Notes under the pieces: generated by a model
Databases searched by the model: none
What the model saw: the letters and a program-made list of their open reading frames with translations, nothing else
Told to the model about the DNA's origin: nothing
Assembly (NCBI GenBank): GCA_905178155.1
Contig: CAJINV010000012.1
Location: 181,271-245,270, forward strand
Origin: Amoebophrya sp. A120
Taxonomy: Eukaryota > Protista > Dinoflagellata
Length of the DNA stretch: 64,000 nt
Direction of reading: 5' to 3'
In this document: in pieces, positions 251-64,000 of the stretch
Position numbering within the stretch: position 1 is the first letter of the stretch
Layout: each line of letters begins with the position of its first letter
Position numbers and translations under genes: made by a program

Positions 251-484
251 TACAATCTCAACTGTTACATAATGCAAGAACGGCAAAAGAAGTGAGTAGA
301 GAGGGAAGATTTTTGCACCGTTTGCATTACAAGTCTGGCGCAGGAGATTCTAATGCTATCTAACGAGTCGACAACTTGTCATGCGAAGCAGCTTGGTCAA
401 CATCAACATGTAGATACTGATCATGCCGATTTTGCATTACAAATTCACGCAACGGTCGAGAAAATAACATTTGAGAACTCCATA
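251..484. mobile_element. Introner family G, partial (left end displaced by an unrelated insertion at 1-250)
   Basis: TCTCAACTGTT motif and right end ...TTGAGAACTCCATA resemble element 10141-10379. Confidence 0.6.
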
Positions 485-542
485 TGCAAACTCGGTTCGG
501 TGATCGTTCCCGTTTTGTCCAGACACTGCACGTCCACTTCTC
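485..542 (-). CDS. P5 ATPase exon with the DKTGT phosphorylation site
   Basis: Reverse complement reads (G)EVDVQCLDKTGTITEPSL, in frame with LLLAGE once 543-698 plus one TTCTC is removed. Confidence 0.9.
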
Positions 543-3500
543 TATGAACTGCAAAAGTATAAGTATCGCACTCGTATTGCAGTTATACATTACAAAGCTT
601 GTTCGTGAATGTAAATCAGCATCACAAATTTTCTTTCTCATGCAGAGGAAATAATTTGTATATGCATTTATACGAGTACGATACTTTTGCAGTTCATATT
701 CTCCGGCAAGCAACAACCGCTTCAGCTCTAGCGTACGCGTCTTGTGGTAGATAAGATCCTCAGTGTTACAACTACTAAGAACACCTGCAGGAGATGAAGT
801 ACGACTACCGGGTTCTATCGTCTTGCTCCTGGTTCCCGCGGCTCCTACACGAGGACCTTGTGAGGCACCATTCCACAGGCGAAGCGACGCGAACTTCTGG
901 GCCATGTATCACAGGGAAAAGTATTTATACGGTAACGGAATTTGTGATGCAGCAACGCATCAGAAAACGTGTCAGAATTTGTCATGCATGGCCTGCATAT
1001 TGGGTTACGTTTGTGATGCATGACTGCCATCTGTGAAAACCGCCAACGTGTGACACTTTTTCTTGTGATACCATGGCTAGACCGGCCAAAATTCCGGGGT
1101 TGCACATCAGATAGGGGAGCCGGAGGGCGTCCATAAGGGAAGTGATAATGTTCTGGTAGACCTGATGAAGATGTTGAAACAAGGTGAGGTTTATATACTT
1201 GCGAGGGTTAGTAAACTTCTTTTCGTGCCCTTAGTCAATCAAAAATAAAACAAATGATAGTAGGTGCCTCAAGATGAAGATGCCAGTGTTGCCATTGCGG
1301 ACTAGGAGGCAAAGCCAAAGCATCCTCGACCTGTGCATTAAATGAGAGATAATTTGTACGGAAAAAGAAAAAGTCACTGTTGCCCTCTAAAAAAGGAGGC
1401 AAAATTTTACAGTAAAAGTAAAACCTTCACCTCCTTACAGCCAGGCGCATAAACACATAGATGTGGATGATATAGCACTTCTGCAGCTGGCTCTGTATGT
1501 CTACGACCATCACAAAAAATCAATGCCCTAGTTGTACCTGCCCCTGGTTCACAAGCAAATCAGGAATCATGGAGATAAGCATCAGCACGCTCGCCACGGT
1601 GAAGAGAATCCAGACAAACTGCTCCTGAAACACGTAGCGCACCGGGAGGGGAAACAAAATTTTGCGAACCAGACTCCCGTTCAATGTATAGGACCCCGTG
1701 TGGATTACCAAGCCAATGGCGCGGGTGACTGGCGGGGGCTTTTTCACCTCCTCCGCCGGGGGAGTAGTAGTTTGGGACGTAGTAGCCAAGACGTTGTCCT
1801 CTAGTTTCGCATGAGTCGCTTCGTTACTCATCTGGGCTTGTTGCCCTGGTGCCTGACTGTGCAGTAGACCAGTGGCTGCCAGTCCGCCAGATAGTGACGA
1901 TCTTTTTTCCATCGTTTTTACGTTCTCCTTGTCCGAGGCCCGCCCCTCCTCACAGGTCGACATTTGGACGTGTCTGGCTTTGCGTTTGATCTTCCCGTGA
2001 TCCACGACATTTTTGCTGCCTGGGCGTCGTGGCGTCGGCAGAGAGAGGAATCCACCACGATTGGGATTGCCGCCGCCCAGTTTATCCTTATCGTCCTTGT
2101 TGGAGGACGCTGCATTACCTCCCGAAGGCTCCATTGATGGGGACGTGAACATCTCGGATGATGTGACAGGCTTGTTGCAAGAACTACCTTCAGCACCCTG
2201 TGTTGGCGTAGTCGCTGCACCTACTGCGGAGTGCGAGTGGTCCGCATTTTTACAAGGTTTGTCAACTTGTTGGTCAGACTGGTGCTCTTCAAAGGCGGCA
2301 CTGTTGACGCTGGACAAGATCTCGGTGCCGCAATAGAGGAAATGTTTTTTCCCGTGCTTTGCCAAATCGAGGCACTCTGCGGAACCGAATTCCAGGTATG
2401 GAACTGTCATGATCGAAATTGACAAAGTTGAAATAATTTCTGCTGCATAAAACCGCTAGCAGCTGGCGCCAATTTTTCAAGTGTCGCATGACAAATGTTC
2501 CTGGCCCCTAAAGCAAATCTGTCATGCTGTTTAGGGCAAAAGGGCTCGTCCCCTCTGTCATGCTAATCAGCAGCCCAATTCTGGACGACCCTTAACAGCA
2601 CTACAATCTGCCTCCCTTGTGTCCTCTACAAAAATAGAGACAGTTTTTGAGTTGCAGTGTATGCGTCACAAACTATTTCAACTTTGACGATTTCAATCCT
2701 GACGCTTCCATACCAGGGGGAGCTTGGATACCGGCATGGGTTCGCCAGTCAGGTCCGCTTCATTCATCAACACGTTGCCCTGCAGCAAAACGCAGTCGCA
2801 GGGTACGATGCCGGACTCCGGGATCTGGAAAATATCCCCGGGCACCAGCTCAATGGAATTCACGGTTACCCACTTGTCCTCTTCCTGGGCGCGCTTGGAC
2901 TTGTTCGACATCTCGTTCAAAAACTCCGTATTGGAAGGCGGCTTGATGTTCTGCTGCTGCTGGGATTTTTCAACATCTTCTTGGGTCGTCTCCTTGTTCT
3001 CAAGGTCGGCGCCCACTTCCTCGTCTTTAATGTTGCCTGCAGGAGGACGATCATCTTCACGACTAGTAGCACTAGCACCGGGCGACGAGGAGGACGCGCC
3101 TTTGTTTTTTTTCCCCTTCATCTTCGGCTTATCTTTATTTGCTTTTCCCTTCCCCCCCGCGAGAGCCGCGGCTTCAGGACAACTACTCGAGGTCTGTTTG
3201 TTCGACGTCGTGCTTTTTTGCTTGCTTGCTTGTTTGTCGGATTTTTGCGTGCTTGTTCCTCTTTTAAAGCCTTCAGTAGCTCCTGCTTTAGCTGCGGTCC
3301 CTGTTCTTTCGTCATCCGAATCCTCTTCCTTACTAGGATTTTTCTCAGTCGAACTTTGCGCACCGCTGGTACTAGAACTACTTTTCTTCCGCGGGGACGC
3401 GGCTGAGGTGTCTTTTTTTCCACCCGCCGGGGTTTTACTATTCTTCTTCTTGCGATTTTTAGTATTCCGACTGCTGTCAGCACGACCCGCGTTGTGATGC

Positions 3501-6500
3501 AAACCAAAGGCGGCAACCAGCTCGGCCTCTTGCTGCTTCAGAACGGCGCGCTCCCGTTGCTTCTCCAGAATTTGCAAAAGCTTTTCGTCGAGAATTTCTT
3601 CCTCCTCATCTTCTTCCTCCTCCTGCGCCCGGGCGAGCTGGCTATCCAGTGTCAGTTCGTGGTCGGGATAGGGAAGGAGAAGCTCGTATCATATGTAAAA
3701 ATGTCCCCACGACCCCATAGTCAAGTTGGGAACTTAATAGCAACACAAATCCAGAAGTTTTGGGAGCCACGCATGAGAAGCTGCAGTCCGTAGTGTAGTC
3801 TGCATGTTAGGAAGGACAACCGCATCACAACAAATCCATCTTCTTTATCCTGTTTACAGCATTACAAATTTTAAAACACGATTGGAAAAAATGCCTGTCA
3901 TGGAGATGCGCATCACAAATCTTGCTGTAATCGCACATCTGCATGACAACTCTGGGGTGGGAACGTTTTTACTCACGATACAACCTCCGGGCTTTTATTC
4001 ACCGCGGCGCTGAGCACGGACGCAAAGGAACTCCTGCTCTGCCCTATCCTGTGCAAAAGAATCGCACTGGTATTGCAATCATGCATTACAAATTTTTTTC
4101 TTAAGGTAAATCCGCATTACAAATTTTATTTCTCACGCTGAGAAAATTTGTAATGCATTTATACGAGTACGATACTTTTGCAATGCATATGCCCCCTCCT
4201 GGTACTATTACCCAAGGCGTTGATGATGGTATTCCGCCGCGTTTCTTCCTCGTCCGACCCGGTTCGGTATGACAATGCACAACCCCCCGTCGGCCTCCGC
4301 CTCGTTTGTCATGCAAAATCCCAAATCCAGCGGCTGCCATGTACTAGCGCTGATTGCATGACAAATTTTTATGGAACAAGTCCAAACAGTACTGCTTACA
4401 CTCGTCGCAGGACCACGAACGTGTCATGCTCGGGCTCCACGTGTGCTGGTGTTTGTGTTGCTGTTCATGCCACACAAATGAGGGATACAAATGCGAGTTG
4501 TGCGCTCGGCTCTCATAATCGGAACAAGGTCCGGGCCAAAATGTGGTCCTGTTCCACTTTTTTCTTGATAGCCGCCTCGTCCGCCCGCAAAACCCGGAGG
4601 TCTTCGATCTGCGGGATCTGCGCGGCAATTTTGAGTTCCTCCATTGATTTTTTCTCGCAGTAGGCGATGTAGCACATTTGCACCAGGTTCAGACAGAAGG
4701 GCAGAATCGCGATGGCGAACCGAAAGTGGAAGCTGGACTGCAGGACACGGAACAGCAGCCAAATGTTCAGCACGTCGGTCATTTGCACTTGGAAACACTT
4801 ATGAAGTGCAAAAGCATCGTACTAGTATAGATTGCATTACAAATTTCCTTAGCATGACAGATGAAATTTGTAATGCTGTTTTAAGTAAGAAAGATTATTT
4901 GTCATGCATGTCTGCAATTAGTACGGGTACGATACTTTTGCAGTGAATAGAACTGCCAGAACCGGGGAATCTCGATTTCCACCTCGTTCTTGCCAAACTT
5001 TTTTCGTAACTCCTCGGACTGCAGCGTAGTCAGTGGCGTATCAAATGCAAAAATGTCTGGGTCTGAATGTCATGCACATTTTGCATGGCTCCTGGTGTCT
5101 GTGATGCTTTCCCTAGCATCACAAACATTGCGAGGGCTTCCTGATGCCTATACTGTATGAGAAATGCCCTCTCGCCGTGGCAAAAACTGAACCTCTTTTG
5201 CTGTTCATGCAATACAGATTTATTGTAGAATCCAAATCCAGCATCACAAGTTGCATTCTTCCAGACCCACACACGTTTGCAATGCATACGGGGCACTGGT
5301 TGCCAGTTCGAACAGAGGTTTGGACAACAGCTCGTTGCATCAAGTGCAAACATGTCTGGGTCTGGAAAGTTGCAGAATTTGTCATGCACCTCGCGGACAC
5401 ACTCATGGCCTGTAATGCACACAGAACCATCACAGATTTTTTGAGGCCTCTCTCACGCCTATTCCGCATGAGGAATTCGCCTTCTACCGAGCGAGAATCG
5501 GGTAAGAACCATTGGCGTTCATGCAGCACAGATTTTTTCGTGATTCAGATTTTGCATGAGAGGCTTCCTTCTTCCAGACCCAGACATAGTTGCATTTGTA
5601 TTTGATACGTTGCGCGTCGGCACAAATTTTTCCTCGAACTCTTCCTCCGAGTCATAGTGCAGCTTCTGGTTCTGGAAAAAGATCGATCTCTCGCCAAGAA
5701 AAGGTGCCGGTGCGGGATCTGGTGCTACAGCAATAGGGATACTAGGCTTGTTTGAATTCCTTGATTTAGATTTGTCCTTGGCTGTAGTTGGTTCCGACTC
5801 CACGCCGTTCTTCTTATTATTTTTTGTCCCGCCCACACAGCTGCTGACACTAGAGGCAGGTGTGCTGACGCCTTTCTTCTCCGGAGTCTTGCGCCCCGCC
5901 GCGGCCGGGGTACAAGAGTTGTTAATAGAGCCCGTTGGTTCGTCGTGAAGGTTTATTTTCTCATCGTGTAGTTCAGAATCCTGCCGTCTCTTTTCCTCGT
6001 GGTACGACCCGTGGTGCAAGCCAGTTGGGGAAAGAAGACCGCGGCCAGACTTCTTGTGGTAGTCTTGTTTTTCCACACGAAGACCAAGATCGTCCTATCC
6101 TGTGGAAAAACGTCCCCACCCCAGAGTCAAGATGGGCGACATCTCGCAACACAAATCGAGAAGTTTTGGGAGTCAAGCATGACAAGTTCGACTCTGTACT
6201 GTGGTGCAGTTTAGCAAGTACAGCCGCAACACAAATCCTGTTTACAGCATTCCAACGTCCAAAACACGACTGGAAATGCCTCTCATGGGGATGCGCATTA
6301 CAAATCTTCCTGTGACTGCATATCTGCATGACAACTATGGAGTGGGGACGCTTCTACTCAGGATACGTCCGGCTGCGCTACTAGAATGTTGCTTCCCGAG
6401 GCCGTTGTCGGTAACGGAATGGTATCCTGTGCAAAGTATCGTACTCGTACTTCTAATTGCTTTTATGCATTACAAGTCTTTTTCTGAAGGCAAATCCGCA

Positions 6501-9500
6501 TTACAAATGCCATTTGTAATGCTGAGAAAATTTGTAATGCAATTTATACTAGTACGATACTTTTGCAGCTCATAAATGGAAAGCACAGGCACCAGCGGGT
6601 CGTCATCATGGGGGTCCGTTTCAACAACAACATCATCTACTGCGACGTCGTTGTAACAGCCAACGCTTGACGACTTTTTTCCGGTAGTTTCGTCCTTGCG
6701 CGGCGCCACTGCTTGTTGGACGTCGAGTGCACCACCACCACGAACACCACCATTGGGAGCGTTTTCAATGTTCTCTTCAGCGTTAGTACGAGAAGGCAAC
6801 GACGAGGAGCCCAGTGGAGTCGATGTGATGTATTCCCATTCCGTCCTGCAAAGCAGATCATTCTCGCAATGCTCTCGTTTTTGATATCTGCTTGTTCTTC
6901 TCTCGTCCTCTCCGAGGATTGGTGGTGGTGGATTACTTGTATAACCTGTGGTGTCCTCGTCTTCGTCTCCCACCTCTGACGTTTCAGACGACTCACGCTG
7001 TCCTCTGCGGAGGCGATCGCGCGTGCTATCGGTGCCAGTAGTCTATCAGAGTGCAGAACACCTTCCCCTCCCCCTCAATTGTATGGCATGATGAACAGCA
7101 TCAGCAACACAAGCACCCGCAAATATGATGTGGGTCGTTCCACCGCATGACAAACCTCCTGGACACAGATTGTAGTACTGCTTGACGTTGTTCCAAAATT
7201 TGGCATGCAGACAGTGCCTAAAGGTAAAGGCAGGATGTGGACGTCGCTATCGCTTTGGTATTAATTTTGGGATACATATGGCTTTTTTTGGAACTGTCTA
7301 AACTGACAACGGAACTTTTTCGCGACCCTTGGATCCTTCCCCGCATGTTCTCGTGTTTTTTTAAAAAAAAGGGCCCAGACTGAAAACGGAACCCGAAGCA
7401 GTAAATAGGTGTTGAAATGGAAACACAGAACACCCAGGGAAGCTCCGGCTAGCGCCTAGAAGTAGAAAGACGGCTTCTGTGCGCATGGCTCCCACACAGG
7501 TGAGACAGAGCTTGCGAGGGTGGGAAAGTGATCGAATCGGTTTAGTTACGAAGAGACGCTGTCTGCGAAAGGAAGCGCGTGAGCCGAGACACTCACAGAG
7601 CAAGGGCGCCGGCTTTTGGTTCGTTGGAATTCACGCTCTTTGCCTGGTCTCCTAGAGACGGAAATGCAAATGCTTGCAATGGGTGCGCATTCTGTCATTA
7701 GACAGAGAGCAGAAGAACTAGTCTGGGCGCCACCGCCAACGGCTTCGCTTTCACTCGGATGGGGCCGGGCGATCTGATCCCTCAGAAACTTCACGGAAAT
7801 TGCCTCAACTTTTGTTGGGACAGAACCAGCACCCAGCTCGGCAAGTGCTCAACTCCTATCCACATGAAAGGGAAACGATAGGGGCAGGGGGAGGATGATC
7901 GAAAGCGGTACCAAAGCGCCCCACACATAAGGGCCGGCGCTTCATGGCCTAGAACAACCCAGAGCCAACCGATTTCAAGACTCCCACACGATCGGACTAC
8001 CCGGTGAGGGCGGTTGATCGTTTTACCCCCCTGATCGTGTAACAATATCGGCCAAAAATTTTCTTTGCCGAGGCCGCGCAGCCACCTCCACATTGTGGAG
8101 GCGGTTGCGCGGCCTCTGCAAATGCCCGTCAATGAATTACCAAAAACCCCAGGCACGAGGAAAAACAGCCAGGACAAGCCGGGAGCCTTGGTGTGCTCCG
8201 CCTTTCGTCTTTCGCTGGGCGCGACTTGGGACGCTGCCTCACAGGCAGGACAATGGAAACGAAAGACCATTTGGCTGACCGGCGGGGCACACAGGTGGGG
8301 AGACAGACAAGAACGAACGGTCGGCGGGGCTGCGGCCATTGAACGTGCGCAAATCCCGCAATTTTTGTCCCCCCTAGGAAGAGAGAGAGAAAAGAGAAAA
8401 CAAGATCTATATCTATTTTAGATCGAGAAAGAATAAGAAATAGAAAAAGAAGAAGAAAACGAAAGACGAGAAAACAAAAAACAAAAAAGCAAACGAAACG
8501 AACAAGAAGGCGAATCGCCACGGTATGGTGAATGTCGGTTCCGTTGTCAGTTTAGGTAGTTCCGAAAAAATCCGATCCCTTAATTTTGTATATATAAATG
8601 AGGGGAAGGAGAAGTTCAAGTTGTGCAGTCAACATCTCATACAGTCCTCACCCTGTCCACATGTTGACCGGCCGCGCCGGAGACCTGCAGAAAGTTCTGC
8701 TTCGACGTCTTTTGCGACTCCGCAGCCGGTGCTTCACGACCTGCATAATGCTGCTCAAAGGCTGTACCAGCAGGTTGTCGAGCAGCGGTCGAATTGTCGT
8801 CCCGCGCGGCCGGCGCGCTTGCGTCCTGCTCCTGCGCTTGAGGATTTTTTTCTTCTGTACATGGTGCGGAGTCGACAGATGTTGCGGAGGTACAACTACC
8901 TGCGCCTGAATTAGAGCTGTAACACCCGTTAGCATGAGAAGTGGTGAATTTGTAGCGAATCTTGCATGACAAATTGCAGATGAGTCCGCCGGGACATTGT
9001 CCCTCTTGCCCTTCTGGGAAGTGGGTTCTGCACACCGCAGAAGTTGTCAAGGCTTATGTGGCGGGCAGCTTCTAGACATGGCCTGGGCGTCGTTCTTCGC
9101 CCATAGCCATACAATTTCGTCTCCCTGTGCTCGCATAAGAGCACTGCAACAGCCGCGGCAAAGACGCCAAAAATAAGGGCTCCGGAGCACATACAATTAC
9201 GCAAGATGAAGGCGCGAGAGCAAGGGCGAAAGGACCAGGCCGAGAGCTTTGACGCGTCTATCCGGCAGGCGCGTGAGCTCTCCAGGCCTTTTCGGCAGAA
9301 TATAGACGGGCCGAGGGCAACAGAGGGCGCTTGTCTTTTCCCCTCGGCGCCACTTCCTAGGGCCTATTTGCGGACTTTTTTGAGCACTTTTCTGCGCTAA
9401 AGTTTGCTTATCACGGTCGAAAAGGGGCGCCCGGTGAATTTTGGGGTGAATTTTGAAAAGGGCGCCGGTGAATTTTGGCCTCCGGCTCCTTTTCAAAATT

Positions 9501-12500
9501 CGCTAGCGCGTGAGAAACTCCGGGTTTGGGGGCTTCAAAAAAGTGTCGCAAAAACAAAAAGCCTCAAAATTCACCAAGAGAATTCTTGACCTGAGAGCCA
9601 CCTCGAAAAAGACTTGCTCCGGGGGCAAAAACACGCCTGGGGAGTTGTAAGCCGAGCACACCAGGCCAAGCAAGCTAGTGCCCGTAGCCGAGTCGTGCCT
9701 TCCCTTCCACCCGAGGCTACTCCCAGATATCCAATTCCAAGCCACAACTCGTGAGAGCGCACGTGTTGAACTAGTGCCCCTGTGTTCAGGCGTCGCCCTC
9801 CCTCCCGACCATTCCGGAGAGGAACTTCTGAGGCAGACGCGCAGATGAACAAGAGCCCCACGACCCACACTCTTTGGTTACATATGCACTACACAGTCCG
9901 GCGGGCCCCAGCAAGACCAACCACTACTTCTTTCGGTGCTGCAAGTGCCACCTGGCACCGAGCAGCCCTTCACGCTGCGTGAGCTGCTTGGGCTCGTGCC
10001 CAGCCCTTTACGCAGCGCACTTCTCTTTTGAAGTAAATGCAAGTCATGCAATACAAATTCACCGCAAATTCACCCTTCTGTATGCTAACGACCGTCCAAG
10101 GCATAACAGATGGTGCGGAGGTACAACTACCTGCGCCTGATATGGTGTTCTCAACTGTTACATTCTCAACTGTTGCATGGATTTGTGATGCAAGAATTGC
10201 AAAAGTGAAAGGGGAGAGGTTGCACTTCTAGCATTACAAGTTTTGCACAGATTTAGGTGCTGTTTAGCCCTTCGCAAATTTGTCATGCGAAGCAGCTTTC
10301 CCGTGTGAATCTTGATGGTAGTTCTGCATGACAAATCCATGTAAGAACAGCTGAGAACGTAACAGTTGAGAGCGCCATACCTGAAGCGGATGTTGTTGAT
10401 GAACTCGAATTCTTCATCATCTTCTCGTCCTGCTTACTGCCGCCCTTTGCAGTTGTCTCGCAGGACGACCATTCGTTCTGATTCAAAAGGTATAACAGTG
10501 TACAACTCGTCCCCCTCCCCCTCATTTGTATTGCATGAACGGCAATACAAGCATCAGCAAGAGTGCTGGTGTTGCATGTTGATGTTACAAATTTGCACTG
10601 GAGTATAATGCTATTCGGGCAACTTACCAGAACTTGTCACGCAAACTGTGCCATGAGGAGAGGCGTAAGTGAGGTATTTTGCATGACAAATGAGGGGAAG
10701 GGGGAGTTGTGCACTCTCATAGGCTGGCGCGCGGCTTTCTCTGCCGTTCCTCTTCCTGCTCCTTTCGCAATTCTTGCTCCAGGGTCGCCTGCGCGGCCAG
10801 CTTGGACTTCCGGAGCTCCTCCTGCTGCTGGCCCTTGCCGAAGTGCTTCCGGCCCTGAATCAGGAGAACTTTCTCCCCCTCGGGACAGAAAGACACCGAG
10901 CGACGCGCTGCCCGCGAGTCAGCGCTCCCCGATTCCCCGAGGAGCGCACTGCCGACCGAAACGCAGGAATCCCGCCCGCCTGGCGCGTAGCACGACGAAT
11001 GTTTCCGCAAAATGGACCGCCGAGGCTGGGGACCGGTAGTTCCGGTTTTGTTCGCTGTTAGATCGCTGCTGTTGGACAAAGAGAGCCTTTGCAACTCTGA
11101 GGAGCCGGAACAGGAAGACCACTCACGGAGAAGGTGAGAGGACCAGATGCAGGGCAGGTCACGGTCTTCCCCCTTGCGTTGTAGGGACAGGTACTGCTGT
11201 TGAGCTGCGCCGGCGGACAATAGCATATTCTTTTTCTTTTTCACCCCCCGCGCCGTTTGCCGATCACACGATGAAAACGAGGAGGACGACATCCGAACGC
11301 GCTGCTCGTCCAGAAATTCATCTTGCCCCCGTCGTCCTGACGATATCCACAGTAAATTTCCCGCACACGGCGTACAAGTGCGGTCTCTGCATGACAAAAC
11401 TTGGCTTCGATCCTAGTTTAGCATGACAACTTTTCTTTATGCTCCAAATTGGCGAAATTTGTGATGCATCTTGTACATATACGGGTGGAAATTTGTATTG
11501 CATAGACGAGGAGCTGAGACCACTTCTTCGTCGCCTCGGAGCTGGAGCATCGGCAGTTCTATCGCAGTTTGGAGAGTGGTCTCCTTTGCAGTTTGGAGAA
11601 GTGCAGAACCTCTGATCATGTTCATGTTCAACATCATCTTCGGTAAGTAGAATGCTGTTGCGCGCTGGAGTTTCGTAAAAATCTGCGATCCGAGGAGAAG
11701 CTGGGACATCAAGCAACATCTTTGCCGCTGGAGATTTTTGCTGCGGGTGCACCAGGCCGCCATCTTCATGTTCTTCATCCGGAAGTCGCAGGTCGTAATC
11801 TTCCGGCAACAGTACTTCTGGTGGTGCGTCTCTGATGTTGTAGTTCGCATGATTTTTATTTTTAGTGCTCCTTTTTAAAGCTTGCCCTTGTTCACCACAC
11901 GACGAGGCCGAGGAGAGTCGGCGCATTCTTCTATAACTGGAATTGCAGCTCCCTGTGCGCCGGCGGCCGCGGCCAGGCGTGGCGTTATTTGTCCCTATTT
12001 TTCCGGAAGTAGCTGCCCCAAGAAGTCTGCGTCCTCGGACAGTGCTAGTGCAGCTGTCCAGATCAGTAAAAGACGACGACGACCTTAGTCTAGGTTTGAT
12101 CTTAATATTCCACCTTGGTGTCGTTTTCATTTCCTCCTGTACAGCTAATTCGGCGGACACAGGAGAGGTCTTAAAATCTTCTTCCGTGGTTTTGTTCCAC
12201 TGGCGTGTCAATTGCACTTTCTCCTCTGCTCATCCAAAAAAAAACTGTGCACGTGTAGCTGCTGGTGGAGCTGGTGTTTTATTGGGGTCGTAGCATGACA
12301 GATTTGCATTTATTTCTGTGCATGACAGCGAAGTCCTCTTACGAGGAGTATCTAGTACAACGTGAAGACAAAAACAGGTAATGAAAAAAGGACACTATGG
12401 TTGGCCAGTATAACGAGTTGCTTTGCGACGTACTTATGCACTTACTAATCAGACAACTTGCACTTACACAATTTCTCTTCTTGCATACGGCTTTTCTTCT

Positions 12501-15500
12501 GCTCATGGAAGTGCCAGAATCGAAATTGACAAAATCGAAATAATTTGTCATGCAAAAAATTATGGATTCCAGTTCGAACCCAGTTTCTAAGTGGTGCATC
12601 ACAAATTCTGGTGGTGCCTAAAGCCACGCTGTAATGCTGGCTAGGCAAAGAAGACTGAGTCTCTCATGCTGCTTTAGCAGCTCGATCTCGTGCTGTAACC
12701 CCAAACAGGCTCACAATCGGCCTCACTTGCCTGCTCTGCAACACACGTACTTCGCGTCATGCATTTTTTGCATCGCAAATTTTTCGACTTTGTCAATTTC
12801 GATCCTGACACTCCCATACTGCTCTGGGGCTTCGTGTTCGTTTTCGCGGCGACCACTTGACAAACCTCCACCACTTTTTTAGAAACAATCCGCAGCTGCG
12901 GGGGCAACGGTTGCACAACTACATCACACGCCCGATTTCTTTTCGCGCACGGGCAAGACGAAGGCAAGCATGTCCATCGACGTTCTTCCGCCTCGACGTG
13001 GGAACTTTTCTGTCTAGCAGCCTGGTCTGAGTCGTCTGCCCCCACAGCTACGCGGCCTCCTAGTGGCCGACGAGGACTGCTTGTTGACTATGCATCGCAA
13101 AAGTAATAAACCATACTGGTAGTAATGCTGATTGGAATCCCGCATGACAGATCTCTCTCCGAAGGCAGATCACCAGCATTACAAATGATCTCCTTTCTCA
13201 ACTTGAGAAAGTTTGTCTTTGTCATGCAATTACTATACATTATATTCATGCGAAAAAAGAGGTAGACAGAGGGTCCCAGAGAGGTGGCCGAGAGGTAAAA
13301 AAGATGTCGACAGAGGTAGAAAAGAGGTCGACAGAGGTGGAGAGGTGGCGCGGGACCCCGTTCGAGAGGGTCCGCGAGAGGGTGCGCGAATAAGGCCCGC
13401 AGTAAGCGCCCACCCTTAGGCGCCGCCTAAGTGGCACAGAGGGTGCAGAGAGGTCAAAAAGAGGAGGCGCGAGAGGTCGACAGAGGTGGAGAGAGGTGTT
13501 GCGAATAAGGGGCGACCTCTCGCGGACCCTCTTGGCCACCTCTCGGCCACCTCTGTCGACCTCTACCCGCGAGTATAGCCGGATTATTAGTGGGGACCCC
13601 CAAAAGAGGTCAAAAAGAGGGTCTGCGAGAAGTCTGCGAGAGGGTAAAAGCACAAAGAAGCGGGCGCGGATCCGCATGGTAATGCCCATATTTGGCACTG
13701 CAGGCCATTCGCGGACTTGTTTTGTTCGGCGCCTTTCCGTGCCACCCTCTCGCGCACCCTCTCGCGCACCCTCTCGCGCCACCCTCTCGCGCCACCCTCT
13801 CGCGCACCCTCTCGCGCCACCCTCTCGCGCCACCCTCTCGCGCCACCCTCTCGCGCCACCCTCCCGCGCCACCCTCTCCCGCCATGCGGCTTCTGTTCGC
13901 CCCCGGTGTTCTTTGCAGCTGCTCCCTGCGCAGAGCGCCCACAGGCGCGGGAAGCGCGCAAGTGGTCCTGCGGCTTGGCAAGGCGCAAATCGGCGGCAGG
14001 AATCCAGTATTTTTCGTTGTGCCTACTAGGCCCGTGGGGTTGTGGTCCGAGCGGCAAACAGCCTTGCCCCGGCCCAACAGCCTTGCGCTCCGGCGGCAGC
14101 CGGAGCATGGCTGGTTTCTACTAATACGGTACTTTTGCAATGCATATTGACGCGTCGATGACAATGGTTTTGGTTCTCCGCCGCGCGCCGGACAGCTTTC
14201 GACATGCTCGTCTACTTGTACTTGATGAGCCCACTCTTTGTTGTAGACCTTGTTCCTGCCGGTAGTGGTGACCAGCGCGCTGCAGCTGAAGTAGGTGCAG
14301 CTTTTCATCGTCTTCGTCTTGCAAGAAATCGTGACAAGGAGAACTCACATTCCTCTTACTCCCGCTCGTCGCGGAACAAGAAGGGGAGGCGGAAACACAT
14401 GTCTCCTGTTTCTTCCCGCATCCGCCCGGGTTAACGTGCAACAAGGGCGGGGCGGTCGTCTGCTTATTTTCACGTCCAGGTTTTTCTTCTCGTTCTCGGG
14501 GTCGGGGTAGTGGAAGTGGTATTAAGCCGCTCGACATAGAAGAAGTTTTGCGCCTGTTTGTGGTCTCCTCGTGGTCTACTTTTTCTCCGCCCTGGCGGAG
14601 TCGCCTTCTTGGGGAGACCGAAATCCGGGCCATTTCGTATAACGTGCTCAGGTGTTACAACAATCTCTTCAAACGGGACTCCAGAGTATGGAATTTGTGT
14701 TGCAAAATGCGCAACATCTGTCCTAGCCTCGCAGGTGGGCGCATGACAAGTTTCGGACCTCCAAACCCAATGAGAGTCTGGCGAAATTTGTATTGCGAAA
14801 AGCCCAATTTATCTCCGTATAGTGCTTATGCTATTCATGCAAGACAAATTCCGGATTCTATTGCAACAGTTGAGATGGTAAGAACACCTGAGCGGGCCAT
14901 ATTTCGTGGCAGAAATCGGTGACGTTGTCCACCACCACGACTTCGCTTATGAAAGTGCACAACCCCCTCCCTCTCCATTGTATTGCATGAGCAGCAACAC
15001 AAACCCCAGCACACGTGGAGCCTGAGCATGACAAGTTCGTGCGCCGACTGTAGTACCATAACTATTTGGGGGCTTCCATAATTTCTTTGTCGTGCAAACA
15101 GCGCTACAAGGCAGCAGCTGGATTTGGCATTTTGCATGACAAACTAGCGGGAGGCGGAGTTGTGCACTGTCATAGCACTCATCCAGCTTCCAGAACGGCT
15201 CCGTACACCGCTACAACCACGGCCACGACCTCCGAGTGTGGCAGTAAAGGACGTCCTATGAATTGCAAAACAAGTATCGCCCTCGTAGTAACCATAGCCA
15301 TGCATTACAAACCTCCTTCTTGAGGTGGATTCGCATTACAAATTTCGTTTCTCATGCTGAAAAAATTTGTCATGCGATTAATACTAGTACGATACTTTTG
15401 CAATTCATACGTCCTCTGCGCCATCGATCTCCGCTTATGTTTGTGCACATCGTGCAAGGGGGACGCGAAGTATTCCAGGTGGTCGGCTGTCCCCTCCGAA

Positions 15501-18500
15501 GAAGTGCCGCCTTCCGTAGACCGGCCGGTGTAGATCTCGGCTTGGTGTTGTAGATGTAGTAGCACTGAAGAGGCTCTCGCCGAGGACGGAGGAGGAGGCG
15601 GAGCGAGGGCGAGTATCGAAGAAAAAAACTGTTTCACTGTAGACTTGTAATGCAGAAAATGCATCTAAGAAGTGTTTGTCTTGCTACACATGCAAGAGAG
15701 TCGATTTTTAGCTGTGTTTTCTCTTAGGAACCTCGCATGGCAAATTTTCCCTGTCATGTAGAGCAAACCTGTGATGCAAAACTTGCAAAATCCTTGCTTA
15801 CAGTGAAACACTTTTTTTCTTGGATAACGAGTCCTCGTGGACTAGTGTCGAAGTCGTAGGTCGTTATGAGAGTGCACAACCGCCTCTCCCCCTCATTTGT
15901 CATGCAATTTCCCAAATCCAGGCTCTGCCTCTTGGCGCTGTTTGCATGACAACTTCTGCTAGCCCCCAAGTAGCACTGCACTCCATTGTAAATTTGAATT
16001 TGTCATGCAAGACCGGCATTCTTGCTGATGCTTGTACTACTGCCGTTCATGCTATACAAATGAAAAGGAGGGGCAGTTGTGCACTGTCATATAGAAGGTC
16101 GCAGCAGCATTATAATCTTCCGGAACAAGTGCTCGTCTAGCTGTGGTTGCAGTTTGGTTGATGTGCTGCTTGTGGTTGTAGAAGAAATCCTGGCCATTGC
16201 CTGCTGCCCCCACAAGCTGCTTATGGTCATTAACATTATCACGACACAGATGTTGGCCTCCGTCTTGGTAACTGTATCGTCCTCTCTTTATTTCTGGTTG
16301 ATGGTCCTCTACCGATTCCGATTCGCTTACCTCGTCTGCTGCGTGTGTGGGTACCGCAGTGGCGGGATACTCGAAATTATCGAGGAAACCATCTTGGGTC
16401 GGTAGTAATGCGGTGGCTCTCGTCTCCCCACAAGGGCGACCTTGTCCAACATGCGTCACTTGTTCTTCGTGCCCTCCAGGCCGCACTGGCAGCGGCGGGT
16501 GTGAGGTGGCACGGCCGCAAGTATAAGTCCGTCTTGTTGTGGAAGTGGTGCGATTAAAACGAAACGCGTCCTCGTCACGACAGGGGGCGGCCGCGTTCGC
16601 GTTGTTTATGCTTCTACTACGCCGCTGCTCAGGACGAGCAGATGAAAAACGACCGTTGCCAACATTTTTATCGTTCGCAACTACATCTTCGACCTGTGAC
16701 GTAGTTGGTGCAACTTGTTCGTCTTCAATCGGTAAAAGTATCGCTTTCCCTCCACGAAGAACTTGCTCATGATCTTCATCGCATATCCCAGCTCTCCCCC
16801 GCCGAGCTGAATTCAATTCCCGTTGTTCCTTGTCTTGCCCTTCCCGCCGGGACGAGGAAAACAACATCGCCCCACACGCGGTGCGAACTCGCAGACAGGC
16901 CGCGGTGGCGCGGGTAGAGAGATTCTGCCACCAGTCGAGCAACTGCCAAGTTAGGGAGGACGCGCGCTGCATGTCCAGGATTTGCTCCGTCAGCGCGTCT
17001 AGGTCGCGCACGAGAAGTGTAGTGGAGGCCATCATCGTCGTGTCTGTTCTTGATGTTGTTCTCCTCGATGATTCCGCGTGAAGAGCGGCGGAAGATGAAC
17101 CTTGATGGTCCTGCTCCTCGCGAGAGGTTCTTGAAGTGCCGCTGGGTCCTCGTCGCGTGGTACTTCTAGACAGAGCTGCTTCATCCACAACTCCGGTCGT
17201 GCCTACCTTGTGGTCGCGGGATGGACCGGCGAGTTGTGGACGAGTCTGCCGTCGTGTAGTCGGGGCGGTGACGCTCTTCACCTCCACCACATACTCCTCA
17301 ATGGCAACCAGGTCGGCCTTGCTTAGTTCCACTTCCTGGTAGAAAAATGCCCGGAACTCCTTGCGGTGCTTGAAATACAGCAGCCAGGCGAAGAACACGG
17401 GGAAGAAGAAGACCAGGAAGAGAGTATCATATGTAAAAACGTCCCCACCCCATAGTCAAGTTGCGAACCTAGCAAGACAAATCCACAAGTTTTGGGAGCC
17501 ACGCATGAGAAGTTGCAGTGCGTAGTGTAGTGCATGTTAGCAAGGACAACCATAGATCACAAAGCCGTCTGCTTATCCTCTTTACAGCATTACAAATTCC
17601 AAAACGCGATTGGAAATGCCTCTCATGGAGATGCGCATTACAAATCGTCCTGTAATCGCAAATCTGCATGACAGCTATGGGGTGGGGACGTTTTTACTCA
17701 GGATAGAGAGCCTTCAGGTTGATCGTGAAGTCCAGCAAATCGTGGGGGTCCACCGGAACGTCTTTTGCAGCCGGGTCCACCGCGGCGGTTCCTCGCAGAA
17801 GGTGGCGCTGGATCCGCTCGTGTACAACGGGCACATCTACACCACCCGTAGAGGGCCATGACCCTGCAGCTGCGTGTCCATCTCCTGCTGCGGTATGGGA
17901 GTGTCAGGATCGAAATCGATAAAGTCGGAATAATCTGTATAATGCATAAAATGCTACGCAAAAACGGACTCTATTGCAGAGACTGCAAGGGAGGCCGATC
18001 ATAGTCCTGGCACGGGTCAACAGTTGGGCTGCTGACTAGCATGACAGAAGGCAGCTCTTTTGCAATAAACCGCATCACGGATGCGCTTCCAAGGCGGGGA
18101 AAATTTGTCATGCGCCGACTACAAACTGTGGGTCTAACTGGCATCGAGTTTGTGCATCACAAATTTTTCGATTTTGTCATATTCAGATTCTGACACTTCG
18201 ATATGCGGCGTCTGCATGATACTCCTCCCCACCCCCTCCAGGTAGAAGAAGGGAAACAGGAAGCAAAAGGAGCAGCCGGTCGCGAAGAAAATTACCGCTG
18301 CGTCCTCTCGACGGCGCGTCCACCTGCGCCTGTGGTGGTGGGAACGCACCAGCCCCTGTCGGATCGAAGAAGCCCCCGATGAAAGAAGTGGCTCGACCAC
18401 TACTAGCAGACCCGGACTGGTGGGCGAAGAAGTGGCACTCGATAAACGACCGGAAGATGGAAGGTCCCGCTTTGGCGGTCGGGTATAGTTTCGGCAGGAA

Positions 18501-19520: not shown

Positions 19521-19821
19521 GATGTCGGAGCCGAAGCTGCGCTACTTACACTGGAAGAATTGGTGATGAACCATGCCGAATGGCACGGCTTGTTTTTCTA
19601 TAGTGAGAGTAAGCTGATAGATTGTGGGGATGCGGTCCATCTCGACTTTTATCTCCACCCCCAGCGTCGTCTAGCCTTGTAGACCCATGCTTGTCTATAC
19701 TTTTTCTTTATATATTTCTTTTAGATGAAGGATTAGGATAGGTGTTCCTTGATATTGCCTCAGAGACAAAAGGAAAAGCCACTTGTTCGCCACTTACTAA
19801 ACTATGCTGAAGCTGACTATA

Positions 19822-20435: not shown

Positions 20436-21146
20436 GGGAGGCTGTTGGCTGATCGATGTTCAGTGATTTCACCCTCGCGCTCTTGCAATTTTGCGACGAT
20501 CCCTTGCCAATTTTCCTGCTGCGCGTCATGATCATATGCGGTGGCAATGCGCTTTCTTTGCAGTGCGCCCGCTTAGCTTTTTTTGTACCAGTTGGAAGAA
20601 CTGTTCTTCCCACCTATCAGGGTGCCAGCGCTGTCACGCCTATCAGGGTGACGAAAGGTCGCCATGCCCAACAGAGTAAAGAATCTTCTACCTCCGGGCC
20701 GCGCCGACGTATAGTGAAAAGCCATCCTGCATGTACTGTGCCCAGGATTTCCCTTGAAAGATCAAGGCTGTCCATAAAAGTTCTAGTAGGCCTCTTAAAC
20801 GTAAACCGTACTACGTTGAAATAAAGGACACAGACAAAAATTTAAAATTTTGCTATTACGAGTTGACCAGTCGTGTAGCGGAGATTTAGGTTTTAGCATT
20901 TAGGAAGCGGATAGCCACCGGAGATTTTGGCGCGGGTGGGAGCAGCAAGTTCTGGACGCGGCAAACCGGGATTACTTCGACCCGAACCTCGACGCTCAAC
21001 GGAGCCTGGAGCCTCGGGCTACCAACGTCCTGGACTGGATGCAGCGCCGCCGCTTCTTGCTTATTCTTTTTGTTTTTAGCATGCTGAACTAGCTAAACCT
21101 GCAGGCGCATTAGCTAGCTAAATTACGTACTACTAGCTACTAACTG

Positions 21147-21185
21147 ACCCGAAATGTAAGTAATTTTAGCACGGAACTAAGGGAG
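21147..21185. repeat. Inner inverted repeat, left copy (pairs with 31876-31913)
   Basis: ACCCGAAATGTAAGTAATTTTAGC...CTAAGGGAG versus CTCCCTTAG...GCTAAATTACTTACATTTCGGGT. Confidence 0.85.
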
Positions 21186-35310: not shown

Positions 35311-35492
35311 ATATTCGCACAGACACAGTCACAGGGCGGAAGGCCACACAAGTTTTATGCCGGAGTCCGGATTTATTTGTCCTCATTTACTTATTTGCTC
35401 AGGCGCGTCCTGCAGAGACCGTTGCTTTCTATGGCCGTCCTGCTGCATTCGCGCTGCAAAATAAAATTCTCGAGCGGGGTAACAAATTAAGA

Positions 35493-58820: not shown

Positions 58821-59537
58821 ACATTACCAGTGGAATAAAGTAAATCTACATTTGCGCTTCGGTAGTATTTGGTGCCATTCTTATATTTCTGTCATTGAGA
58901 ACTACGCGTTTTTTTTCTCGTGCCTCTGCGTCTCTATTTCTCTTCTGCTGCCAATATCTAGCATCACAAACTGAATGAACTCCCATAACTTCGCTCTGCA
59001 TGGCAGAGAGTTGCTTGCTTTTTTTGACAGGACGTTAGCAACACAAATTTCATTTTTTTCTGATTCTGGGATAGGAGTTTCTTCGCTTTTCTGTTTGATA
59101 ACCGTGCCACTCGTCTGGAAGAGAGCGCAGCCGGATCCGTACTTCAGTGCCACCCTTACGCCACGGCTTTTCGGCAACGGACACGAGTTTGCGGATGGTT
59201 TGTGATAGGTCGGGCGGGCGACTCGGTGTTCTTGCTGTTTGTTCTGCGCCGAAAGAACTTCAACATCTTCGTGCTGGATTGCACTCTGCTGCTCGTCGGC
59301 TGCTACAATAACCACAGAAGTAGATGATCGCCGCGCGCAAGAAAAGGAGGAGGTGCCGACTTGATGACCGCCGCCGGGCTTCTTCTCCGCTTCGTCGGCG
59401 AGCGGGTGCTCGGTTGCAGTTTGTGCGTCCGCGCTCGTAGGAACGGCCTTGTTTCCATTTTTGCCCCGCCCGTTCTTCCGTCCGCCGCCCGTTTTTTTCC
59501 CGCCGTACTGGCAGTTCTTCTTACCGGAAGCTTTACT

Positions 59538-60870: not shown

Positions 60871-62688
60871 GTTCCGCTTGTAGAACCTTGTAGCTCCACT
60901 TGCTTCCACAACTCACCCCGTTCTTTAGCGAGTACTGCAGGCAGAAATTGCTTTGCACACCTCGCGATTGAACTTGCAAGGCAATCTGGATTCGTTCTTT
61001 GAAAATCAAAAAAAAATGTTTGTAAATATCGTTGAAAACAAGTAAAAAGCAAAAAGTGTTGGAGGACTAGAGGATTGAAAAAACGTCCTTTCGATTGATA
61101 GAAGTACGGTATCTGCAAATAATGTAAGTAAGGACTCCCGTCGGGATACGACGACAACGAAATTAATAGTGTTCAACAAGCGATCGCAATTTTAATTCAT
61201 ATATTCCTATTCGTGCTTAGATGAAGAAACTCTTTCTCTACTTTGCAGCTTGGCGGGGGACAACGAAAGCGTATTCAAATATAATTATAAAATGTTGGTC
61301 GTGCTGCAGTGGGAAAAAATGTTTCTTTGTGTTTCGCAAAAAAAAAAACAAAAAGTATTTGATATAGTGCGAACGCAAAAAGTGCTGAGATTCTGCAAAT
61401 TGTGGATGTGAAGTTGGTCGGCTGAGTGATGGCAGAGGACCAACGGAGGATATCCGACATACACAGCGTCAACAACCTGCGAAGAAATGAAATGATCGCA
61501 CTACTTTGCAATGTATGAGTCAGTCCCAGTCGCTGTTGGCAGTGAAACGTATTAACAAAGGACGACGCTTCAAAAATCACAAGAATTCCATGGTATTTTT
61601 TCTTTTTAAACACCACGATATACAAGAGCGGTTTCCAGAACGACGAGTTGTGACCGACTCTAACGAAAAAAATGCACGAATTTCTACATACTCTCTACAC
61701 GCATCCAGTTCATTTTTAACATTTTCTTTGCTCGCCGAACCAGTGCTTTTGCCTTTAGAGAGAGGAACGACAGGACGAGTAGTCACCGAGAACGTAGCTG
61801 TAGGGCTGTTTTTTGGACGAGGACGACGAAACAACTACTCCTCGCCACACACGAAGACCGACTTTGGGCGGGAAGCAAAAACCTGCATAACACCGAGGAC
61901 GCGAGGCTTTTTCGGTTTTTCATCCACTGTTCTTGTAGTTCATAAACTATCACTACTGCGATTACGAATGAATGGCGCAGGCTTAAGCTGAAGTCAGACG
62001 AAGCGCACATGGCAGATAGACAGATGAGGTTTATAGATACTTTTTTATCGTGCTTCAAAACCACAATTAAAATCCTCAACCTAAAAGACCGAAAAACGAA
62101 CCCTGTCTTGAACAAAACCGATGACTGCAGACAGGGAGCCGGCTGAAAATGCGCTCGGCCGGTTTACAAGGTTATGTTGCTCGACGTCCAACGGGCGTGC
62201 TTAAGTGGTGCTGGAAAGAACATGCAACACTACACAAAACAAAAGCACAACATCAGACCGCAGAAATCTTGCAATCCTTCGTATGTGTTCTACAGATCCG
62301 GTATCGACGGTAATCGTGTAGTCTACAGTTTTTTCTGGCGCGCCGCAGATGCAGCTCCAACTACGTCTGCTGGTGCTGCAGTATTATACTTCAGCATCAC
62401 AAACTAGTTGTACTTCTTTTTGGAACTGCGTCAAAGGAGGTTTTTTGTCATGCACAAAAGCGAAGATGGTGCATGTGCAGGAAGCTGGAGTGCAGGTATA
62501 CATTGACAAAAACAGTTGCTCGTTACCCTGGACCAAAGATTCGCTCCGCCCATACCTCAGGTGAAGAGCAGCCAAAAGACCGTTTCGCGGCTATCGTACG
62601 AAAAAACTGCTATTTCACTGATGTTAACCGATTTTGGTTTTGCATGAAATTATAAAGGTTGGACTGCCCAACGAGGTCCTTGTTCCGC

Positions 62689-64000
62689 CTAAGGGAAAAC
62701 TTCGCAGCTTAAAATCCGCTGTTTTGCATTCCTAGCAAGACGGAGACAAACCCATCTCAACTTCTGTGCTGCAGGACATGCTGCATTTTCGAATCCGAAA
62801 GTTACCACAACTGAAGCAGTTTTTCCTATACGATAGCCGATGTTCAGAGTCGAGTGCCACCAGTCGTCGGGTAGCCACAATGCTTCGTCTTCATTTTGCG
62901 TGCACATTTGAATCGTCGCCAGTATCCTGGAGAAAAGCGTGCCTGTACCCGTTTCAGATGGAAGATCTGGGAAAATCTGCTACGGCTACGCAGGTTCGAA
63001 AATTGATTTGCAAACTGCGTAGGACAAGCCTGAACCCGATGCAGTGCGGTCTTCTCTTCGTGCTTTTTATCGATGAAGACTTCGCTACATTTTCTATATT
63101 CTGATTGATGGAGGTTGGCAAATTGCGAAAGAGCAACACGAGTTGTTAAAAAGGCCCTCCATGCCTACCAGCATGCAACCAGACTTGCACTTGCTTCATA
63201 TGACAATCCGCATGACAAATTTACTGTCGTGGGCACGTTTTATTTCCACAGGATAGCGGAGTCTTTATCTTCTTGGTCGTAGAACCAGTTGAAGCTCGAC
63301 TTTTCCGGGTCGAAGGGTGCATCTATCAATTGCAAATATGTCTGATTCTGGAAGATTCTGAGACTTGTCATGCACGTTTTGCATGAGTCATGATATCTGT
63401 GACGCGTGCCCTAGCATCACAGATTTTTTGAGGGCTTCTTGATGCATATTCCGCATGACAAATGCCTTCTCCGCGCAGGAAAAATTGCACTCCCTTTGCT
63501 GCTCATGCAATACAGATTTTTTTGGAATCCAACTGCAGCATCACAAGTTGCATCCTTCCAGACCTAGACATATTTGCAATGCATAGGATCGACGGGTTTG
63601 CTATTTGCAGCGGAGGAGGTGAAAAGGGGTTTCTTTTCCACGTGTCGATGTCCTTGGGGATTCAGATTGTCCTGCTTGGTAGAAGTGGTTTTTGCAGCTT
63701 TCATCGAGTTGATCTTGTGATCCTGAAGTTGTAGATCCTCTTGGTCTTGTTTCGTCGCGGAAGCGACGACTCCTCCAGCCAAGTCCCCACTGTTCATCGC
63801 AACGTCGAAAAGATCAGACTCGGTTGACCCGCCGTGTCGCCTAGCTCCTCCGCGTCGCCCCGTTCTCGCCAGTTCTTTCCGGTGCGCTGCTGCTGCTGCT
63901 GTTGACGGGGAAGTGCGGCTGGGAGCAGGAGAAACATGTTCCAGGAGGTCCACCTGTTCTGTACTGTCACCAGTCGACTCCTGCACTGATCTCGCGCCCA
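62689..64000 (-). CDS. JmjC-domain (cupin) protein, 3' part; HxD motif expected beyond the window
   Basis: Spliced translation ...PFDPEKSSFNWFY...DSATIQMCTQNEDEALWLPDDWWHSTLNIG matches the JmjC C-terminal C-x-Q-xx-E-xxx-P-xx-WWH-xx-N motif. Confidence 0.75.
62923..63255. mobile_element. Introner family C-like, reverse orientation
   Basis: Ends TATCCTGGAGAAAAGCGTGCC / GGCACGTTTTATTTCCACAGGATA; removal restores the JmjC frame. Confidence 0.75.
63324..63585. mobile_element. Introner family D
   Basis: D-type TIRs; TSD GCATC/GGATC. Confidence 0.88.

What the first reader, a model, noticed from the sequence alone, without database searches (positions are those of the whole stretch)
320..63545. 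Family-independent bidirectional motif GCAT(G/C/T)ACAAA inside the introners
Seen: GCATGACAAA, GCATCACAAA, GCATTACAAA or close variants, and their reverse complements (TTTGTCATGC etc.), recur several times per element in families with otherwise unrelated TIRs and bodies, and are rare in exons. The motif also occurs in apparent introns of the large transposon (e.g. 21343, 27590, 27955, 28231). Inference: it is either a shared subterminal transposase-binding site, as in hAT elements, or an orientation-independent splicing signal that lets non-GT-AG introns be recognised. The latter would be a new intron-definition code.
Basis: partly seen in the sequence, partly recalled or inferred. Interest (0 to 1): 0.7.

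Follow-up and report, generated by a model that had tools for sequence, protein, structure and literature searches.

The report
Phased DNA motif inside transposon introns
Dozens of transposon-derived introns from otherwise dissimilar families all carry the same 10-letter motif just inside both ends, on either strand and often exactly three DNA helix turns apart, which likely marks where a DNA-binding protein (probably the transposase) grips them, while their end-to-end hairpin likely guides splicing.

Summary
The motif is real: 77 exact hits against 0.56 expected. 66 of the 77 lie in TAT..ATA elements with 5-bp target duplications or their relics; none lie in 16 kb of exons. These are likely Amoebophrya A120-type introners; RNA contigs skip element plus 5 nt exactly. 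New architecture: the outermost motif centre lies 35-54 nt from the element end (291 of 340 ends), and same-strand copies are 31-32 nt apart across families (48 of 108 unselected elements, null 6.6). Strand relative to the transcript is random (209/225). This points to a double-stranded-DNA binding site. The motif is neither needed nor enough for splicing: an 11.4-kb element is skipped in RNA without it near its ends, a one-TIR relic carrying it is retained, and exons do not avoid it. Best reading: a shared subterminal transposase site, with the TIR hairpin as the splice signal (0.5). A host intron-marking protein stays open (0.27), because about half of TIR-less GT-AG introns carry the motif. 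No binding partner was identified.

The parts
543..698 (.). Family A introner (about 150 bp). Other copies: 4045-4189, 4800-4949, 6423-6574, 15257-15409, 18656-18807, 37661-37813, 47215-47376, 48468-48626, 59861-60018, and 13089-14146 with nested cargo. 2-4 motifs each; outermost motifs mostly read inward
   Evidence: RNA joint for 37661-37813
18888..19142 (.). Family B introner (about 255-280 bp). Other copies: 5039-5288, ~5335-5607, 37327-37604, 39573-39834 (no RNA cover over the paralogous upstream region), 48132-48408, 59538-59804, 63324-63585. Outermost motifs read outward
   Evidence: empty site in paralog near 41377; RNA joint for 37327-37604
17425..17705 (.). Family C introner. Other copies: 3687-3980, 6096-6365. 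All 5-6 motifs on one strand (antisense to the host transcript)
   Evidence: terminal RNA stem, z -7.8
17894..18203 (.). Family D introner. Other copies: 2397-2712, ~12504-12818, 40791-41118
   Evidence: empty site near 40522
15865..16091 (.). Family E introner. Other copies: 4268-4517, 10491-10721, 14948-15174, and 7044-8641 with cargo
10141..10379 (.). Family F introner. Other copies: 14638-14901, ~247-484
907..1070 (.). Family G introners. Other copies: 58376-58536, 15614-15826. Also family I at 11344-11504 and family J at 62923-63255
58797..59100 (.). Family H introner (paralog 47429-47697); an RNA loose end shows the joined form
   Evidence: (table 7)
36763..36974 (.). Family H relic that lost one TIR, keeps motifs at 36927 and 36964, and is retained in RNA
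   Evidence: contig 36729-37003 at depth 174
37928..38225 (-). Canonical GT-AG intron without TIR, carrying the motif at 37977-37986
   Evidence: RNA joint 37926->38225; ends checked; no inverted repeat
12228..12465 (-). Predicted TIR-less GT-AG intron with two motif variants (12293, 12320); boundaries approximate
33521..35610 (-). 2,090-bp TAT..ATA element skipped in RNA with an unambiguous register: cut 1 nt before the 5' TIR and 4 nt after the 3' TIR, ends CT..CA; one motif variant near one end only
20809..32249 (.). 11,441-bp element with 56-bp TIR (TAC-N7-AAA start) and 5-bp duplication; skipped in RNA as element plus 5 nt; no motif within 150 nt of either end; motifs cluster in the putative introns of its internal genes
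23732..28400 (-). Multi-exon gene inside the large element, a transposase candidate from short DDE-like words only (unconfirmed); the intron ~26131-26696 is supported by homolog P0003
   Evidence: Pfam, Atlas and AlphaFold uninformative
250..19536 (-). Host P-type ATPase gene (P5-like by my reading) interrupted by about 28 elements; long frames return on removing element plus 5 nt
   Evidence: (PF00122, E 4.5e-14)

Best explanation
The motif sits in several copies just inside both ends of TIR-bounded introners, on either strand and with same-strand copies 31-32 bp apart, and it is likely a binding site for a double-stranded-DNA-binding protein, most likely the transposase that moves these elements. 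Shown: the elements start TAT and end ATA, have 5-bp target duplications, insert in either orientation, and are skipped in RNA as element plus 5 nt. Shown: the motif is the only sequence shared across family interiors, and its distance from the ends and its spacing are fixed. Inferred: a protein with more than one DNA-binding module (or a dimer) binds two sites three B-DNA turns apart; any short segment with TA ends and such sites can be mobilised, so one trans-acting factor serves many families. Inferred: splicing is set separately by the family-specific TIRs, which pair in the pre-mRNA (median 30-bp stem) and place the cuts about 1 nt before the 5' TIR and 4 nt after the 3' TIR, so that exactly one target copy stays in the mRNA. 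Under this reading, motifs in TIR-less GT-AG introns are leftovers of old introners.
For: Position: 58 of 76 outermost motif centres lie 33-60 nt from the end in the window and 291 of 340 lie 35-54 nt from the end in independent loci, just inside the terminal stem. Phasing: 7 of 9 family representatives have a 31/32-nt same-strand pair (null mean 0.76, 0 of 20,000 permutations; a best-window null never exceeded 5 in 5,000). This replicates in 48 of 108 elements that do not match the search pattern (null 6.6, maximum 17), with mean spacing 31.5 nt over the 30-33 peak, while spacers differ between families. Strand freedom: 209 sense and 225 antisense; family A inserts 20/22 and family B 15/16 each way; 20 of 114 in-gene elements have the motif on one strand only. 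Conservation: motif columns diverge 5-10% against 17-29% for other interior columns in six families. Not needed for splicing: 11.4-kb element; 6 of 12 credible predicted GT-AG introns have no hit. Not sufficient: relic 36763-36974 is retained. No exon avoidance. TIR positions 4-13 resemble the motif in families A, B and I. After duplication of a host locus the TIRs are the most conserved part (7 of 124 columns variable, against 188 of 753 interior and 72 of 730 exon), and the two arms of a copy co-vary. Precedent: a transposase binding subterminal repeated motifs of a MITE cooperatively (PMC1636448, abstract).
Against: No transposase was identified and no binding was shown. The only coding TIR element at hand has the same kind of ends (TAC-N7-AAA, 5-bp duplication) but no motif near them. 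Orientation relative to the end is family-specific (A and I inward; B, D, F outward; C and G direct). TIR-less GT-AG introns carry the motif at 3.4-5.7 per kb against about 0.3 by chance and show no residual inverted repeat, which neutral decay explains poorly. Motif columns are somewhat more conserved than other interior columns after host-locus duplication (13 of 88 against 188 of 753, p=0.035), although the copies are mosaic and columns are not independent. Farhat et al. found no transposase in A120 (PMC7789003 section 16).
Confidence: 0.5

Rival explanations
1. A host DNA- or chromatin-binding protein binds the phased motif and marks the DNA as intron, helping co-transcriptional splicing (or acting as a host cofactor for transposition). 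Unrelated MITE families that carry the sites are tolerated in genes and become introners.
For: One motif is shared by families with different TIRs. It occurs in TIR-less GT-AG introns, one of them RNA-verified: 6 of 12 credible predicted ones, or 5 of 11 without the locus picked by the search; 11 hits in 1,920 bp of putative introns against 2 in 5,181 bp of exons of the large element. It is near background in other non-coding DNA (0.42 per kb). There is modest post-insertion conservation. It is absent from the ends of the coding TIR element.
Against: Not required (11.4-kb element; motif-free GT-AG introns) and not sufficient (retained relic). No exon avoidance. The age test with target-duplication mismatches had no power. 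The coding versus non-coding test was confounded.
Confidence: 0.27
2. The motif acts in RNA: sense and antisense copies pair to extend the intron hairpin, or an RNA-binding protein or snRNA reads it.
For: 634 of 1,282 motif sites (both strands folded) pair with another motif in minimum-energy folds, and motif bases are less often unpaired than other interior bases (0.23 against 0.45). 94 of 114 in-gene elements carry both orientations.
Against: 20 of 114 elements have one orientation only; family C is all antisense in three window copies and all sense in L006. Fixed 31.5-nt spacing between same-strand copies is not needed for pairing. There is no strand bias. The pairing count had no shuffled control.
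Confidence: 0.13
3. The motif is a neutral remnant of one common ancestral element with a 31-bp internal repeat.
For: The families share TAT ends, an A-tract at positions 11-14 and 5-bp duplications, so they probably belong to one superfamily.
Against: After masking motif and ends, only 2 of 55 family pairs reach z>3, with scores at the null maximum. Spacer sequences differ while spacer length is kept. Motif columns are 2-4 times more conserved than their neighbours (columns were defined by matches, so partly circular).
Confidence: 0.07

Closest known systems
Introner elements (IEs) of Amoebophrya sp. A120 (Farhat et al. 2021, PMC7789003; abstract, sections 11, 12 and 16, passages, text search of the supplement)
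   Same: TIR-bounded repeated introns with non-canonical junctions, short direct repeats, and inverted repeats that start TAT, then seven variable bases, then A-tract. Lengths are similar.
   Different: The text read reports no internal motif, no spacing rule and no exact 5-bp duplication with a -1/+4 cut, and it argues against transposase mobilisation. Figures were not visible to me. Species identity is inferred from the signature, not from a sequence match.
Emigrant MITE and Lemi1 pogo-like transposase (PMC1636448; abstract only)
   Same: A MITE with repeated subterminal motifs bound cooperatively by the transposase in addition to the TIRs.
   Different: One family and no splicing; here one motif spans at least ten families with different TIRs, and the binder is unknown.
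Subterminal repeats of hAT and CACTA elements (Ac/Ds, En/Spm; recalled, no call)
   Same: Short motifs repeated in both orientations near both ends.
   Different: The 8-bp (hAT) and 3-bp (CACTA) duplications recalled for these do not match 5 bp; no such transposase was recognised.
IS3EU/GingerRoot DNA transposons (PMC10045372; passages)
   Same: TA..TA termini.
   Different: Their duplications are usually 6 bp, here 5 bp; no IS3-like transposase was detected.
Nonconventional introns of euglenids (review PMC11282704; passages)
   Same: Non-canonical introns whose TIRs pair in RNA and bring the ends together, with TSD-like repeats.
   Different: The passages read mention no shared internal phased motif; different lineage.

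Membership tests
Amoebophrya A120-type introner elements | Inverted repeats at both intron ends that can form a hairpin | tested here: met
   median terminal stem 30 bp
Amoebophrya A120-type introner elements | 3-5-nt direct repeats at the boundaries | tested here: met
   5 bp; 130 of 179 perfect, with a finder that favours duplications; empty sites in paralogs
Amoebophrya A120-type introner elements | Inverted repeat begins TAT, seven variable bases, then AAA | tested here: met
   TAT 99%; A at positions 11-13 in 63-85%, family-weighted; definition
Amoebophrya A120-type introner elements | Spliced out with non-GT-AG ends | tested here: met
   four RNA-contig joints skip element plus 5 nt and are absent from the DNA-like run; one is unambiguous, CT..CA
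Amoebophrya A120-type introner elements | Sequence identity with the published A120 genome | not testable with these tools
   no genome held; run names coded; protein searches gave no named relative
Transposase-bound subterminal MITE motifs | Repeated motif near both ends, just inside the TIR | tested here: met
Transposase-bound subterminal MITE motifs | Same motif at the ends of the autonomous partner | tested here: inconclusive
   absent from the ends of the 11.4-kb element, which is not shown to be the partner
Transposase-bound subterminal MITE motifs | Direct binding by the transposase | not testable with these tools
   needs EMSA or pull-down
hAT superfamily | 8-bp target duplication (recalled) | tested here: not met
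   5 bp
hAT superfamily | hAT-type DDE transposase | tested here: inconclusive
   no Pfam, Atlas, phmmer or structural support
IS3EU/GingerRoot | TA..TA termini | tested here: met
IS3EU/GingerRoot | Usually 6-bp target duplication | tested here: not met
   5 bp
RNA-level intronic splicing signal | Strand-specific with respect to the transcript | tested here: not met
   209 sense against 225 antisense; single-strand elements in both senses
RNA-level intronic splicing signal | Complementarity to the organism's snRNAs | not testable with these tools
   no sequence letters found in the supplement text of PMC7789003

The most novel reading that the evidence does not exclude
In this lineage introns are partly defined on the DNA: a host protein binds pairs of the motif three helix turns apart, 35-55 bp inside each intron end, in introners and in ordinary GT-AG introns alike, and hands the ends to the splicing machinery of an organism in which U1 snRNA was not found. 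Transposons that carry this mark plus a hairpin can then insert anywhere, in either orientation, and be spliced.
Probability: 0.2. Interest if true: 0.9.

Novelty: new variant of a known kind. Interest (0 to 1): 0.6.

Why it matters
How these non-canonical introns spread and how they are spliced are both described as open in the literature read (PMC7789003: U1 not found, no transposase found in A120). The window gives two separable, testable cis rules: a phased 10-bp DNA motif shared by all families, and a TIR hairpin with a -1/+4 cut. The motif is a ready bait for finding the missing trans-acting protein. If that protein is a transposase, it explains how many dissimilar families are mobilised. 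If it is a host factor, it would be a DNA-encoded intron mark.

Tried and rejected
EM motif refinement diverged to base composition and was replaced by mismatch tolerance and a fixed PWM. No RNA holder was listed as such. Raw-read RNA runs X5-X7 laid 1, 9 and 2 reads, and no exon-exon joint was among the 15 shown of 40 for window 1-20000. Most of the large element's interior had no RNA contig cover, so its internal introns are unverified. My first reading of 36768-36950 as a canonical intron was overturned by RNA. Two of the four HMM introns in the window were contradicted by RNA contigs, so the HMM is crude; from its 20 predictions I dropped these 2, five with element-mask fraction above 0.3, and one family-B relic, leaving 12. 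The age test with duplication mismatches had no power. The coding versus non-coding comparison looked significant (1 of 64 against 5 of 11 without an end motif), but 4 of the 5 are doubtful elements and the off-by-one control passed 92 of 154, so I rejected it. Exon avoidance: none. Transposase identification failed: Pfam, Atlas, word-index search, phmmer (a BRCA2-repeat hit judged chance, and unnamed P0003), AlphaFold pLDDT 41 and 34 (no fold search run), viral contigs blank. Taxon check by protein gave no named relative. The 51 metagenome loci outside the one assembly had no TIR element around the match; the six richest were tandem repeats. Similarity to the apicomplexan TGCATGCA motif was only looked up as a search listing and not tested.

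Full report
Observation. GCATBACAAA occurs 77 times on both strands against 0.56 expected. Single-position tolerance gives H-GCA-(T>A)-B-A-(C>G)-A-R-R-T, with 130 cores against about 8.5 expected. A PWM at 10 bits gives 198 hits against 20 expected.

The elements. Self-comparison and an end search define at least ten families of 110-330-bp elements that begin TAT, end ATA and are flanked by 5-bp duplications; paralogous genes in the window show empty sites. Removing 22 elements plus one duplication restores frames of 1,225, 672, 537 and 363 codons in a P-type ATPase gene on the minus strand. Contigs of runs X1 and X2, guessed to be RNA, show joints that DNA-like run X3 lacks: four skip exactly element plus 5 nt and one removes a GT-AG intron (15 of 21 joints shown). 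X1 and X2 are one sample, so this is a single source. The joint 33516->35612 is unambiguous: the cut lies 1 nt before the 5' TIR and 4 nt after the 3' TIR, with ends CT..CA. The other joints are compatible with this register but do not fix it. In 116 oriented elements the flanks are nearly unconstrained: under this register donors are GT 43, AT 28, TT 26, CT 19, and only 8 acceptors are AG. The signature matches the published A120 introners, so the source is likely that lineage; this is inferred.

Distribution. Of the 77 exact hits, 61 are in 39 small elements, 5 in relics, 3 in TIR-less GT-AG introns, 3 in the large element, 5 elsewhere and 0 in 16,175 bp of exons. 81 of them share one contig prefix and the window's families at about 67-96% identity. 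Merged to 77 stretches (161,448 bp) they hold 179 elements. PWM density there is 19.0 per kb in element DNA and 0.63 per kb outside; 9 of 179 elements lack an internal motif.

Architecture (new). Outermost motif centres lie 33-60 nt from the end in 58 of 76 window ends and 35-54 nt in 291 of 340 locus ends, just inside a terminal stem of median 30 bp. Same-strand copies are 31-32 nt apart in 23 of 38 window elements and in 7 of 9 family representatives (null 0.76). Because the scan selected for that spacing, I dropped the 71 elements matching the pattern: 48 of the remaining 108 still have it (null 6.6), and the peak averages 31.5 nt, three turns of B-DNA (established value of about 10.5 bp per turn). 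Spacers differ between families, and after masking motif and ends only 2 of 55 family pairs reach z>3. Orientation to the end differs by family. Orientation to the transcript is random (209/225), and 20 of 114 in-gene elements carry one orientation only. A site that is read equally on both strands at fixed helical spacing is best explained by a protein binding double-stranded DNA (inference).

Is it a splice signal? Against: the 11,441-bp element 20809-32249 is skipped in RNA (depth about 78; an empty allele in that sample is not excluded, although contigs entering the element exist) and has no motif within 150 nt of either end. The family H relic that lost one TIR but keeps motifs is retained at full depth. 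Six of 12 credible predicted GT-AG introns have no hit. Exons hold 11 hits against 11.1 in synonymous shuffles of 57,327 bp. In duplicated host loci the TIRs are the conserved part (7 of 124 variable columns against 188 of 753 interior, p=1.6e-7), and the arms of a copy co-vary in four families, which points to the hairpin as the splice determinant. For some host role: TIR-less GT-AG introns carry the motif at 3.4-5.7 per kb without residual inverted repeats, one of them RNA-verified; motif columns are moderately conserved after duplication (13 of 88, p=0.035, mosaic copies, canonical-intron ends in that alignment off by a few bases). One predicted GT-AG intron (L072:3807-4177) is a visible family-B relic, which shows that the relic route exists. 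About half of motif sites can pair with another motif in RNA folds (634 of 1,282), without a control.

Is it a transposase site? Position, copy number, strand freedom and phasing fit, TIR positions 4-13 resemble the motif in families A, B and I, and there is precedent (abstract). But no transposase was identified: the multi-exon gene in the large element has one unnamed homolog that supports one intron and no family or fold assignment. That element lacks end motifs.

Literature. Seen: PMC7789003 (abstract, sections 11, 12 and 16, passages, supplement text search); PMC12130899 (passages, search of 12 of 14 supplements, one table part); PMC9860276 (supplement search); PMC10045372 and PMC11282704 (passages); PMC1636448 (abstract). 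Searches listed no paper describing this motif in introners (15 of 75 listed, all unrelated by title). The library is incomplete.

Verdict. The elements are a known kind; the shared, end-anchored, helically phased motif and the separation of a DNA code from an RNA hairpin code appear new. Transposase site 0.5, host DNA mark 0.27, RNA-level role 0.13, neutral ancestry 0.07.

Noticed in passing
window 20809-32249: An 11.4-kb gene-carrying TIR element is skipped precisely (element plus 5 nt) in RNA contigs, downstream of the stop codon of the host frame: likely a giant introner.
   Followed up: partly
window 33516-35612; 36758; 37321-37814: The splice register appears to be 1 nt before the 5' TIR and 4 nt after the 3' TIR, giving N-TAT donors. 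Eight of 20 HMM-predicted GT-AG introns start GTAT, as a G-preceded introner would.
   Followed up: partly
window 21714-22818 (+): Gene inside the large element with words resembling a duplicated PD-(D/E)XK nuclease (my reading; no Pfam hit), split by a GT-AG intron at about 22415-22668 that carries the motif.
   Followed up: no
window 31190-29700 (-): Multi-exon Gln/Ala/Pro-rich gene inside the large element; intron 30941-31090 has TIR-like ends resembling families A and B.
   Followed up: no
window 7044-8641, 8911-10106, 13089-14146: Introners with 0.9-1.3 kb of motif-free nested cargo inside the ATPase gene; the 8911-10106 insert is flanked by a direct repeat of about 26 bp rather than 5 bp.
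   Followed up: no
window 35500-39570, 46300-50400, 57700-62570: Three mosaic paralogs of one gene of unknown function, with shared and private introner insertions and a tandemly duplicated exon-intron unit at 60074-60873.
   Followed up: partly
window 39573-41762: A truncated introner-poor copy of the ATPase 5' region abuts a family B end at 40385, suggesting element-mediated rearrangement.
   Followed up: no
window 50450-57700: 7-kb GC-rich stretch with no motif core and no convincing gene.
   Followed up: no
L042:2009-2335; L047:1779-1889: TA..TA inverted-repeat elements of other types that lack the motif and are not inside long reading frames.
   Followed up: partly
L030:1963-2066; L079:~3110-3258: Short GT-AG-looking introns without TIRs that hold three motifs each; the first has the 32-nt pair and was picked by the search.
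   Followed up: partly
window 12776-12818: Six raw RNA reads of run X6, which otherwise barely lays on the window, match a family D end with one fixed difference, hinting at related elements in another strain.
   Followed up: no
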